A DNA stretch of 64,000 nucleotides from Candidatus Saccharimonadota bacterium (GCA_009781895.1 WQUV01000002.1:38293-102292); one strand, 5' to 3'; positions 35,698 to 36,390 are shown, numbered from the stretch's first letter. The notes: generated by a model not told the origin, from the sequence alone. Made by a program: numbers and translations.

Positions 35698-36390
35698 ATG
35701 CCGAGTAAGGCTATACTAACACCAACGCAAGAGCTTTACCAGAAGATCTTTGGCGAGCTACCCAAGCGTGACATAATTGAGGCTGACATGCCTGCGCTCT
35801 ATGAAGTTCTTGACACGCTAACTGACCGAGACAAACGTGTTATTGAGATGTGTTTTGGCTTAGGCTAAGAAAAGATGGCGAGAGCAGCTATCGGCAAGGA
35901 GTTAAATGTAACTCCGGCTTGGGTAACACAACTCAAAGCAAAGGTAATAAAAAAGCTACAGAATGAAAATCGTGCTAAGAAGATCAAGCCTTTGTTCTAC
36001 TCATATGAAGAAATGAGAGCTGAAATCACAAGGCGCGACGAGCAGATTTACGAACTGACAAATACCTTGAGGTAAACTAAAGGTGAGAATACTGAGCTTC
36101 GCAAGAAAAATAGAGAGTTAGGAGAGGGACCAGTTGATGCGAAAATGTTCCCCGATCTAAAGCTGATAGAAGTCTTGGATTTGGATATCGAGGAGATGGA
36201 CTTGTCAGTTAGGTCATATAATTGCCTGAAAAGAGCCGGGCTCAATACTGTCAGAGATGTCGTCCTGCGACATAAGAAGGATGGACTCACAAAAATCCGA
36301 AGGATATGCAAACGCTCAATCGAAGAAGTTGTAGCCGAGCTCACAGAGTTGGGTATACTGCTAGACCGACCAGACGAATATTATTTATAA
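35698..36390 (+). pseudogene. Single reading frame encoding sigma-70 region-4 HTH + coiled coil + RNAP alpha-CTD-like HhH, interrupted by two in-frame TAA codons (35866-35868 and 36073-36075)
   Basis: Codon-by-codon reading gives ..LTDRDKRVIEMCFGLG*EKMARAAIGKELNVTPAWVTQLKAKVIKKLQ...IYELTNTLR*TKGENTELRKKNREL...[22 protein letters not shown]...SIEEVVAELTELGI. The track shows only the 2nd and 3rd pieces. Confidence 0.6.

What the first reader, a model, noticed from the sequence alone, without database searches (positions are those of the whole stretch)
35698..36390. One 231-codon frame encodes sigma region 4 + coiled coil + RNAP alpha-CTD-like domain but contains two in-frame TAA codons
Read codon by codon from ATG 35698, everything is in a single frame. 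The sigma-70 region 4.2 HTH is itself split by the first TAA: LTDRDKRVIEMCFGLG-TAA-EKMARAAIGKELNVTPAWVTQLKAKVIKKLQ. A heptad-like segment continues across the second TAA: EQIYELTNTLR-TAA-TKGENTELRKKNREL. The C-terminus is an alpha-CTD-type HhH ([22 protein letters not shown]...SIEEVVAELTELG). There are no frameshifts, both interruptions are TAA, and the locus has its own cassette promoter, 5' hairpin and terminator. I do not recognise the domain combination (a sigma DNA-reading head tethered to an alpha-CTD look-alike), and it would be a plausible RNAP-hijacking or RNAP-recruiting factor. Three options remain: a very recent pseudogene, three deliberately separate mini-proteins, or programmed readthrough/recoding. 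TAA is normally the tightest stop and is used as a genuine stop elsewhere here, so decay is the default reading.
Basis: partly seen in the sequence, partly recalled or inferred. Interest (0 to 1): 0.75.

Follow-up and report, generated by a model that had tools for sequence, protein, structure and literature searches.

The report
Broken copy of sigma4–alphaCTD regulator gene
This is a real but inactivated (two premature TAA stops) stray copy of a mobile-element regulator gene that fuses a sigma-factor DNA-reading head to an RNA-polymerase alpha-tail domain; the stops look like ordinary recent gene decay, while the intact protein family is widespread and has no curated name.

Summary
One frame (35698-36390, +) has two in-frame TAA codons (35866, 36073) and no frameshift. 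Stop-masked, it scores as Sigma70_r4 plus RNA_pol_A_CTD. Intact 228-230 aa homologues (64-67% identical, collinear) exist. They carry Cys (TGC/TGT) and Leu (CTG) at the two stop positions.

The window is a termite-gut-type Saccharibacteria chromosome using the standard code. TAA is its commonest genuine stop (28 of 59 long ORFs) and also ends this gene.

The locus lies in a roughly 1.3 kb lineage-specific insertion between nusG and rplK. It is absent from 80 related Saccharibacteria nusG loci. Intact relatives sit in conjugative-element, phage-like or variable contexts.

The window copy also lacks a roughly 90-nt leader hairpin that sequesters the ribosome-binding site in relatives. It has private changes at residues invariant in every other family member compared (R75W in the sigma 4.2 helix, G204C in the alpha-CTD hairpin). 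dN is no higher than in intact lineages, so inactivation is recent.

Three contig records fetched from separate assembly sources are base-identical, so an assembly artefact is unlikely.

Best reading: a recently inactivated orphan regulator gene. Nothing supports programmed readthrough. The fusion architecture is not unique: 1,382 50%-identity clusters match the family profile at E ≤ 1e-30, but these also include multi-alpha-CTD repeat proteins and possibly plain RpoA.

The parts
35545..36812 (.). Lineage-specific insertion between nusG and the rplK promoter. It holds the regulator cassette (+) and a 119-aa membrane ORF (-). The left edge is approximate.
   Evidence: In L009 and L010 the nusG and rplK alignments are only about 85-105 bp apart; in the window they are 1.4 kb apart. 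The rplK promoter and leader (GCTATAAT...GTTACGCACA) are retained up to about 35530. L008, the closest relative, carries a different 163-aa ORF at this spot.
35558..35586 (+). Promoter: TTGATT, 17-nt spacer, TG-extended TATAAT. It matches the Saccharibacteria consensus TTGACTTTTTAGCATAAGTGTGATATAAT.
   Evidence: It aligns with the promoters of the intact homologues (A3).
35592..35611 (+). Stem-loop at the 5' end of the transcript (GGGTATAC-AGGA-GTATACCC). A role in mRNA stabilisation is inferred.
   Evidence: 119-nt leader fold, MFE -24.7 kcal/mol, z = -2.2. Other genes with this promoter show hairpin-like sequence at the same place, judged by eye in alignment A5 and not folded.
35677..35692 (+). 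Ribosome-binding region TTCCGAAAGGGGCAGA, identical in the relatives. The roughly 90-nt leader hairpin plus anti-RBS strand that precedes it in relatives is missing here.
   Evidence: A3; A7 consensus fold with 5 compensatory pairs.
35698..35868 (+). Segment 1: codons 1-56 (two N-terminal helices plus the first helix of sigma region 4) ending at the first premature TAA (35866-35868). Relatives have TGC/TGT (Cys) there; L006 has Arg.
   Evidence: Annotated at NCBI as a 56-aa hypothetical protein, MCL2371373.1.
35869..36075 (+). Segment 2: codons 58-125 (the sigma 4.2 helix-turn-helix and the first half of the long helix) ending at the second premature TAA (36073-36075). Relatives have CTG (Leu); L006 has Glu. 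It carries the private change R75W.
36076..36390 (+). Segment 3: codons 127-230 (second half of the long helix, linker, alpha-CTD-like domain) and the family's normal TAA stop. It carries the private change G204C. The first in-frame start is ATG 36145, which gives the 81-aa ORF.
36405..36436 (+). Intrinsic terminator (GCCGCCC, 14-nt loop, GGGCGG, then TTTTT), conserved in the relatives.
   Evidence: Sequence; alignment A4.
36417..36776 (-). 119-aa ORF with several hydrophobic, membrane-like stretches and no family match. It lies downstream of nusG inside the same insertion, and its 3' end overlaps the terminator.
   Evidence: NCBI annotates a 116-aa version. No similarity to the flanks of intact homologues.

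Best explanation
The locus is a recently inactivated, orphan copy of a mobile-element transcription-regulator gene. The intact protein is about 230 aa. It has two N-terminal helices, a primary-sigma-type region 4 helix-turn-helix, a 40-residue helix (probably a dimerising coiled coil), a flexible linker and an alpha-CTD-like helix-hairpin-helix domain. The gene reached this Saccharibacteria lineage as a compact cassette (promoter, leader, gene, terminator) that landed between nusG and rplK. In this copy two sense codons have become TAA. With standard decoding the ribosome stops at codon 57, so no full-length protein is made. At most, fragments of 56, 66 and 81 aa could appear. Shown: the stops, the homology, the intact relatives, the insertion, the standard use of TAA, and the loss of the leader element and of two invariant residues. 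Inferred: that the fragments are non-functional; that losing the RBS-sequestering leader, which would leave the gene deregulated behind a consensus promoter, favoured inactivation; and how the intact family works. For the intact family I infer a dimer that reads a -35-like sequence with sigma4 while the alpha-CTD contacts adjacent A/T-rich DNA or RNA polymerase. That arrangement would mimic the natural alpha-CTD/sigma4 pair at UP-element promoters and could repress or activate element genes.
For: Two in-frame TAAs and no frameshift. Collinear intact homologues P0001-P0006 at 64-67% identity (97-100% of the query covered), with Cys and Leu codons at the stop positions. TAA is the commonest terminator in the window (28 of 59) and is this family's own conserved stop. 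Only tRNA-Thr and tRNA-Arg are found in the window. The gene is absent from 80 Saccharibacteria nusG loci, and the close relatives L009 and L010 have no insertion. Intact relatives lie beside MT-A70, a T4SS coupling ATPase and Replic_Relax, beside an integrase, or in a phage-like early region. The window copy lacks the conserved leader hairpin and anti-RBS helix. It has three private substitutions at columns invariant in all 14 other compared sequences (E45D, R75W, G204C), against 0-1 in the close intact members. Across the 13 intact proteins of alignment A6, R75 and G204 are invariant. dN is 0.21-0.24 for every lineage pair, with pN/pS about 0.25-0.3 in all three segments. Most of the divergence therefore happened under purifying selection and the inactivation is recent. 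Three contig records from separate sources are base-identical.
Against: No orthologue closer than 67% exists in the collections searched, so neither the age of the TAAs nor their conservation could be tested. There is no frameshift, no window-specific indel in the coding frame and no measurable dN excess on the window branch (about 0.11 against 0.10 and 0.13, derived). Decay is therefore shown only by the two stops, two radical replacements and the missing leader. Promoter, RBS and terminator look intact. Both stops fall at positions that vary within the family (Cys/Arg/Glu and Leu/Glu/Lys/Asp in the alignment; one search aligned a Tyr of P0008 at the first stop), which a readthrough model would also tolerate. 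It is not known whether the leader element was lost here or gained in the other lineages.
Confidence: 0.8

Rival explanations
1. The gene is split but partly functional. The stops truncate the regulator, but the 81-aa alpha-CTD-only ORF (36145-36390), and possibly the 66-aa ORF that restarts two codons after the first TAA (ATG 35875), are still translated. They would act as small RNAP- or DNA-binding modules.
For: The 81-aa ORF contains the whole alpha-CTD domain and scores 63.5 bits on its own. Phages encode stand-alone alpha-CTD proteins (131-135 aa) and stand-alone sigma-region-4 proteins (94-136 aa). ATG 35875 lies 6 nt after the first stop, so termination-reinitiation is conceivable. Promoter, RBS and terminator are intact.
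Against: The first stop cuts the roughly 50-aa sigma4 domain between its helices. ORF1 alone scores 15.3 bits against a cut-off of 24.1, and ORF2 alone has no Sigma70_r4 hit. The alpha-CTD ORF has lost the otherwise invariant hairpin glycine (G204C). The only Shine-Dalgarno-like run before ATG 36145 (AGGAGAGGG, 36120-36128) ends 16 nt upstream, which is too far, and nothing better precedes ATG 35875. No relative has a split arrangement. The low pN/pS reflects history before the stops and cannot support current function.
Confidence: 0.1
2. The TAAs are decoded by programmed readthrough or conditional suppression, for example by an ochre-suppressor tRNA carried on a mobile element or phage. The full-length regulator would then be made only under particular conditions.
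For: Both interruptions are the same codon. There is no frameshift. Both fall at variable positions of the family. The sequence downstream of the stops still looks protein-like. In-frame stops with apparent constraint are reported to be widespread in prokaryotic genes (PMC7918605).
Against: TAA is the main genuine terminator in the window (28 of 59) and ends this very gene. No suppressor tRNA is in the window. Relatives carry sense codons, not stops, at both positions. From general knowledge, UAA is the least leaky stop in bacteria, and the following bases (UAA-G, UAA-A) are not among the known leaky contexts. Two successive readthroughs multiply the penalty. From general knowledge, no TAA reassignment is known in Saccharibacteria. 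The copy has also lost invariant residues and the leader element.
Confidence: 0.04
3. One or both TAAs are a sequencing, assembly or population-consensus artefact, and the real gene is intact.
For: The source is a metagenome-assembled contig, and no reads could be inspected.
Against: Three contig records fetched from separate sources (ENA ERZ27257300, Logan SRR10512955, ENA ERZ27264051) are 100% identical over both stops. The fragment ORFs are held identically by JGI/IMG, Logan and ENA, and ORF1 also by NCBI. Relative to the relatives, the first TAA differs by two bases from TGC/TGT and the second by three from CTG, so these are not single miscalls. Some of these assemblies may share the same reads.
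Confidence: 0.02

Closest known systems
Intact sigma4 - long helix - alpha-CTD proteins from metagenomes (P0001-P0006; more distant P0007, P0008, P0017, P0022; HTH_3-bearing P0016, P0034, P0070, P0143). The family has no curated name.
   Same: The architecture is collinear, with 64-67% identity to P0001-P0006. The promoter is shared with L001/L002 and, more loosely, L004. The RBS, the stop-codon context and the terminator are shared with all close relatives aligned.
   Different: The window copy has two premature TAAs. It lacks the roughly 90-nt leader hairpin and anti-RBS element. It carries R75W and G204C. It sits alone between housekeeping genes rather than in an element.
Region 4 of primary sigma factors (RpoD/SigA; Pfam Sigma70_r4)
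   Same: The intact homologue P0001 aligns best to RpoD/SigA region 4 (PDB 4g6d_A, E=5.9e-13; NCBIfam RpoD models at 1e-14 to 1e-17). The stop-masked window frame itself reaches 31.7 bits on Sigma70_r4.
   Different: There are no region 2 or region 3 hits, so it is not a sigma factor. No NCBIfam model comes near its cut-off. By alignment, the family's recognition helix reads T-x-A-R-I-T-Q rather than T-R-E-R-I-R-Q (the RpoD sequence is from general knowledge).
C-terminal domain of the RNA polymerase alpha subunit (RpoA alpha-CTD; Pfam RNA_pol_A_CTD)
   Same: 60.8 bits on the stop-masked window frame, covering model positions 9-67 of 67. P0001 matches PDB 3gfk_B and 1z3e_B (Firmicute-type alpha-CTD) at E about 2e-12.
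   Different: There is no alpha N-terminal or dimerisation domain. The domain is tethered to a sigma4 head through a long helix. In the window the invariant hairpin Gly is Cys.
Stand-alone sigma4 and stand-alone alpha-CTD proteins of phages (BFVD entries such as A0A6J5S254, A0A6J5L490)
   Same: They are small proteins built from the same RNAP-derived modules and encoded by mobile genetic elements.
   Different: They have one domain each. The matches are by fold with weak E-values (2.8e-4 and 1.2e-2), so this is analogy and not demonstrated orthology.
Sigma70_r4 + HARE-HTH protein in the same window (39583-40668, next to the T4SS coupling protein)
   Same: It has an N-terminal sigma-region-4 head joined to a module otherwise known from an RNAP subunit (delta/RpoE-type HARE-HTH), and it lies in a T4SS neighbourhood.
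   Different: Its C-terminal module is different and it is intact. Its DNA region aligns in the relative L009 (39496-43414 at 73% identity), and the same gene is called on the source contig. It is not homologous outside sigma4.

Membership tests
Sigma70_r4 domain (PF04545) | Profile score above the gathering cut-off over the whole roughly 50-aa helix-turn-helix | tested here: met
   31.7 bits against 24.1, model positions 1-49 of 50, but only on the stop-masked frame. ORF1 alone scores 15.3 bits and ORF2 alone has no hit.
RNA_pol_A_CTD domain (PF03118) | Profile score above the gathering cut-off | tested here: met
   60.8 bits (masked frame) and 63.5 bits (81-aa ORF) against 23.8.
RNA_pol_A_CTD domain (PF03118) | Conserved Gly of the helix-hairpin-helix turn (N-L/F-G-K/R-K/R-S) | tested here: not met
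   The window has Cys at position 204. All 14 other compared family sequences have Gly.
Sigma factor (sigma-70 family) | Presence of region 2 (core binding and -10 recognition) | tested here: not met
   No Sigma70_r2 or r3 hit in the window frame or in intact homologues. NCBIfam sigma models match only their C-terminal roughly 65 positions, far below cut-off.
Unnamed sigma4 - long helix - alpha-CTD regulator family | Collinear full-length similarity, including the N-terminal helices and the long helix | tested here: met
   97-100% of the query covered at 64-67% identity, E=1e-86 to 1e-90. The profile search recovers 1,382 representatives at E ≤ 1e-30.
Unnamed sigma4 - long helix - alpha-CTD regulator family | One uninterrupted reading frame | tested here: not met
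   Two in-frame TAAs. All the homologues found are uninterrupted over the part available.
Unnamed sigma4 - long helix - alpha-CTD regulator family | Family-invariant residues (E45, R75, Q78, A83, R85, R172, L177, R179, G204, E210 in A6) | tested here: not met
   The window has D45, W75, V83, K85 and C204. Of these, E45D, R75W and G204C are private to it at fully invariant columns.
Programmed stop-codon readthrough / recoding | The stop codon is conserved at the site in orthologues | tested here: not met
   Relatives have TGC/TGT and CTG. No closer orthologue exists to test recent conservation: the clusters are singletons at 90% identity.
Programmed stop-codon readthrough / recoding | A decoding agent (suppressor tRNA) or genome-wide sense use of the codon | tested here: inconclusive
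   There is no suppressor tRNA among the 2 tRNAs of the window, and TAA ends 28 of 59 long ORFs. The rest of the genome was not available.
Pseudogene (inactivated gene copy) | Premature stops relative to intact homologues | tested here: met
Pseudogene (inactivated gene copy) | Relaxed selective constraint since inactivation | tested here: inconclusive
   dS is saturated, and dN on the window branch (about 0.11) equals that of intact lineages. The only signal is 3 private changes at invariant columns against 0-1 in close members.

The most novel reading that the evidence does not exclude
The two TAAs act as a conditional switch. The full-length sigma4-alphaCTD regulator would be made only when an ochre-suppressing tRNA is present, for example one brought in by a phage or conjugative element. 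Alternatively, the split deliberately yields an alpha-CTD-only decoy. Either would be a stop-codon-gated regulator in a CPR bacterium that otherwise uses the standard code.
Probability: 0.04. Interest if true: 0.8.

Novelty: new variant of a known kind. Interest (0 to 1): 0.3.

Why it matters
The in-frame stops themselves do not matter much. They mark an ordinary, recently disabled stray gene and give no evidence for recoding in Saccharibacteria.

The by-product is more useful. Natural proteins that tether a primary-sigma region 4 head to an alpha-CTD through a long helix form a large family that no curated library names. Members are found mostly beside conjugation, integration or phage genes.

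In RNA polymerase, alpha-CTD and sigma region 4 sit side by side on UP-element/-35 DNA (general knowledge). A single chain carrying both is therefore a plausible promoter mimic or RNAP-docking regulator and would be an attractive biochemical target.

The intact members also carry a conserved leader that sequesters the ribosome-binding site, which suggests tight translational control.

Tried and rejected
1. Orthologous locus in relatives. A pattern scan of 185,579 GTDB species genomes with the family's N-terminal alignment found nothing. IMG/VR gave nothing. The metagenome scan gave only 4 loci, all 46-75% identical by best segment. tblastn against 80 Saccharibacteria nusG neighbourhoods gave nothing.

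2. Strain variants. The 90%-identity clusters of the three fragment ORFs each hold one sequence, and the three other fetched contig records are base-identical, so no population dN/dS is possible.

3. Per-segment dN/dS. dS is saturated (pS 0.57-0.96). The analysis only shows long-term purifying selection and no excess on the window branch.

4. Screen for other same-frame ORF pairs separated by one stop. At 50% GC it was too noisy to be informative.

5. Plasmid and phage collections. No record covers at least 80% of a family member. A Streptomyces plasmid hit that seemed to span sigma4 plus alpha-CTD proved to be a genuine full-length RpoA paralogue, so I dropped it.

6. Rfam. No family matches the locus.

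7. Literature. Four full-text searches found no description of a natural sigma4 - alpha-CTD fusion. This is absence from the held library only.

8. 'Special cassette promoter'. Rejected: the 29-nt motif is a phylum-wide consensus.

9. The 119-aa membrane ORF as a remnant of the element gene next to intact homologues. No similarity was found.

Full report
**1. What is in the sequence**

Reading from ATG 35698 on the + strand gives one frame of 230 sense or stop positions ending at TAA 36388-36390. It has two internal TAA codons, at 35866-35868 (codon 57) and 36073-36075 (codon 126), and no frameshift.

With the stops masked, Pfam finds RNA_pol_A_CTD (E=1.1e-16, 60.8 bits, aa 158-217) and Sigma70_r4 (E=1.1e-7, 31.7 bits, aa 37-88). 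The sigma domain is recognisable only across the first stop: ORF1 alone reaches 15.3 bits against a cut-off of 24.1, and ORF2 alone has no Sigma70_r4 hit.

- A TG-extended consensus promoter at 35558-35586.
- A stem-loop at the 5' end at 35592-35611.
- A ribosome-binding region at 35677-35692.
- A hairpin followed by a T-run at 36405-36436.

**2. Which genome, and which genetic code**

The neighbours are S6, SSB, EF-P, L11, NusG, SecE, MurG, FtsW, MraY and a PBP. They are interspersed with a sortase, a lysozyme-like protein and a T4SS coupling protein.

NusG is 96%, 90% and 87% identical to termite-gut Saccharibacteria MAGs (L008-L010) and about 70% identical to rumen and oral Saccharibacteria.

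Among 59 non-overlapping ORFs of at least 100 aa, TAA ends 28, TAG 22 and TGA 9. The window holds only tRNA-Thr(UGU) and tRNA-Arg(UCU). The standard code fits, and TAA is the commonest real terminator. It is also the conserved terminator of this gene family.

**3. The gene has intact relatives**

A search of 5.8 billion proteins with the stop-masked frame found six uninterrupted proteins of 228-230 aa (P0001-P0006). They are 64-67% identical over 97-100% of the query, with E=1e-86 to 1e-90 and the same two Pfam domains. More distant members with the same architecture are P0007, P0008, P0017 and P0022. P0016, P0034 and P0070 carry an extra N-terminal HTH_3.

At the DNA level the relatives have TGC or TGT (Cys) where the window has the first TAA, and CTG (Leu) where it has the second. 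A more distant partial relative, L006, has Arg and Glu. The stops are therefore derived in the window lineage, and both fall at positions that vary within the family.

**4. It is a lineage-specific insertion of a cassette that otherwise travels with mobile elements**

In L009 and L010 the nusG and rplK alignments are about 85-105 bp apart; in the window they are 1.4 kb apart. The rplK promoter and leader are retained up to about 35530. The insertion holds the regulator cassette on the + strand and a 119-aa membrane-like ORF on the - strand.

L008, the closest relative, has a different 163-aa ORF at the same spot. None of the 80 Saccharibacteria nusG neighbourhoods encodes the family.

Intact homologues lie in these contexts:
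- Next to MT-A70, a T4SS coupling ATPase and a Replic_Relax relaxase (L001, L002).
- Next to an ORF that looks like a reverse transcriptase. This was judged by eye from the translation and was not profile-tested (L091).
- In a phage-like early region with DNA methylases and G39P_N (L088).
- Directly beside an integrase, in a CI-like position (L090).

Similarity between the window and these contigs stops at the cassette edges. The RBS, the stop-codon context and the terminator are conserved across all close relatives aligned. The 29-nt promoter is conserved with L001 and L002 and less closely with L004.

**5. Signs of inactivation beyond the stops**

(a) Intact relatives carry about 90 nt of extra leader. 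It forms a 19-pair hairpin with five compensatory pairs, followed by a CUGUCUC strand that pairs with the ribosome-binding site GGGGCAG. The window copy lacks all of it.

(b) In a 16-sequence family alignment, the window has three private substitutions at columns invariant in every other sequence: E45D, R75W and G204C. Close intact members have 0-1. R75 lies in the sigma 4.2 recognition helix and aligns with the R of the RpoD motif T-R-E-R-I-R-Q. My numbering of it as E. coli R586 comes from memory. G204 is the glycine of the alpha-CTD helix-hairpin-helix turn. Both residues are invariant in the 13 intact proteins of A6.

(c) The first stop cuts the sigma4 domain between helices, and the second cuts the middle of the 40-residue helix seen in the AlphaFold model of P0001 (aa 103-142; mean pLDDT 82.7).

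**6. How old is the damage?**

Nei-Gojobori distances are dN 0.24 (window-L001), 0.21 (window-L004) and 0.23 (L001-L004). pS is 0.57-0.96, which is saturated, and pN/pS is about 0.25-0.3 in each of the three segments.

Splitting the distances among three branches gives about 0.11 for the window, against 0.13 and 0.10 for the others. This is my arithmetic on the values.

Almost all of the divergence, including the parts downstream of the stops, therefore accumulated under purifying selection. The inactivation is recent on that scale. The analysis cannot prove relaxed constraint since the stops arose, and I mark that point as inconclusive.

**7. Are the TAAs real?**

The window matches ENA ERZ27257300 contig k141_1115091 (125 kb). 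A Logan assembly of SRR10512955 (2375 bp) and a contig of ENA ERZ27264051 (734 bp) are 100% identical across both stops.

The three fragment ORFs are held identically by JGI/IMG, Logan and ENA. ORF1 is also at NCBI as MCL2371373.1, 'hypothetical protein FWC63_01345', and the next locus tag belongs to the membrane ORF. Some of these assemblies may derive from the same reads, so inspecting the reads remains the formal test.

**8. Rivals**

*Split but functional.* The 81-aa ORF holds a complete alpha-CTD, and phages do encode stand-alone alpha-CTD and sigma4 proteins. However, it has lost the invariant glycine. Its only Shine-Dalgarno-like run ends 16 nt before the ATG. No relative is split.

*Programmed readthrough.* The arguments against it are the normal use of TAA, the sense codons in relatives, the tightness of UAA (general knowledge), the need for two successive events and the absence of a suppressor tRNA in the window. 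It cannot be excluded without the whole genome. The general literature notes that in-frame stops with apparent constraint are widespread in prokaryotic genes (PMC7918605).

*Artefact.* Section 7 argues against it.

I put these at 0.10, 0.04 and 0.02, against 0.80 for a recently inactivated orphan copy.

**9. What the intact family is**

A profile of 13 members searched against 1.84 billion 50%-identity representatives gave 1,382 proteins at E ≤ 1e-30. Many are 200-360 aa and match the whole profile in one stretch. That count also includes long proteins with several matched stretches (multi-alpha-CTD repeats) and may include ordinary RpoA, so it is an upper bound on the family's size.

Of ten sampled proteins, four were sigma4 + alpha-CTD, three were HTH_3 + sigma4 + alpha-CTD, and one (P0127) was a long multi-domain protein that also contains both domains.

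No NCBIfam model comes near its cut-off, and PHROGs matches only sigma-factor families through the sigma4 part. No PDB chain matched both domains of P0001. Four literature searches found no description.

The sigma4 part is closest to primary sigma (RpoD/SigA) region 4. The alpha-CTD part is closest to Firmicute-type alpha-CTD. Region 2 is absent, so these are not sigma factors.

Mechanism, by inference only: a dimer held by the long helix reads a -35-like element with sigma4. The flexibly linked alpha-CTD binds neighbouring A/T-rich DNA or docks on RNA polymerase. This would imitate the alpha-CTD/sigma4 pair at UP-element promoters. The position beside an integrase in L090 and beside transfer genes in L001 and L002 suggests control of element genes.

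**10. Verdict**

The domain fusion is genuine but is neither unique to this locus nor evidently an RNAP-hijacking device.

The stops are of low interest. The intact family and its leader element are of moderate interest as uncharacterised mobile-element regulators.

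Noticed in passing
window 6016, 6770, 32230, 33404, 35558 (+) and 38894 (-); also L001, L002, L004-L005, L008-L010 and 18 further Saccharibacteria loci: A 29-nt promoter with a conserved spacer (TTGACTTTTTAGCATAAGTGTGATATAAT) occurs 6 times in the window (0 expected). 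With up to 3 mismatches it occurs in 25 of the 87 loci held at that point. Most window copies are followed by hairpin-like sequence near the predicted transcript 5' end, judged by eye in alignment A5. Why the spacer is conserved across the phylum is unexplained.
   Followed up: partly
L001:400-486, L004:420-505, L007, L091 (5' UTRs of the intact homologues): A conserved leader: a 19-pair hairpin (UCAGCCGCAG...CUGCGGCUGA) with 5 compensatory pairs, then a CUGUCUC strand that pairs with the ribosome-binding site GGGGCAG. It looks like a translational control element. No Rfam family matched the window locus, where the element is absent; the relatives' leaders themselves were not searched against Rfam.
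   Followed up: partly
window 39583-40668 (+), next to the T4SS coupling protein at 40718-43414: A 361-aa protein with an N-terminal Sigma70_r4 and a C-terminal HARE-HTH (RNAP delta-subunit type; TIGR04567 at E=3.4e-8). This is a second 'sigma head + RNAP-subunit module' fusion in the same window. It is intact, and its DNA region aligns in L009.
   Followed up: partly
window 35412-36812; L008:2690-3382: The nusG-rplK spacer looks like an insertion hotspot in this clade. L009 and L010 have about 85-105 bp, L008 has a 163-aa ORF that looks HAD-phosphatase-like by eye (not profile-tested), and the window has the regulator cassette plus a membrane ORF.
   Followed up: partly
window 37902-38825 (-) and 32343-34897 (+): A 307-aa ORF with a HExxH motif and no Pfam hit gives no DNA alignment in L009 (window 37829-38928) or L010 (37829-38930). 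The region holding the lysozyme-like 326-aa and the 450-aa ORFs also fails to align there. All three ORFs are headed by the consensus promoter.
   Followed up: no
window 6936-7607 (+) and 7608-8686: A 223-aa ORF holding only the N-terminal ResIII/DEAD helicase domain is followed by about 1 kb with stops in all three + strand frames (the - strand was not examined). It is probably another truncated gene.
   Followed up: partly
window 28802-30340 (-): A 512-aa protein fuses an N-terminal HTH_3 (Cro/C1-type) domain to an EPSP_synthase-family (MurA/AroA-type) enzyme. Its DNA is conserved in L009 and L010 (75-78% identity).
   Followed up: no
proteins P0131 and P0127: Metagenomic proteins made of many alpha-CTD repeats. 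P0131 (1031 aa) has 11 RNA_pol_A_CTD stretches. P0127 (1003 aa) has three Spo0A_C domains, one Sigma70_r4 and three alpha-CTDs.
   Followed up: no
L097 (Streptomyces sp. NBC_00724 plasmid NZ_CP108986.1, 160228-161241): A linear plasmid carries a complete extra RpoA paralogue (RNA_pol_L, RNA_pol_A_bac and alpha-CTD domains) beside SSB and HTH genes.
   Followed up: partly
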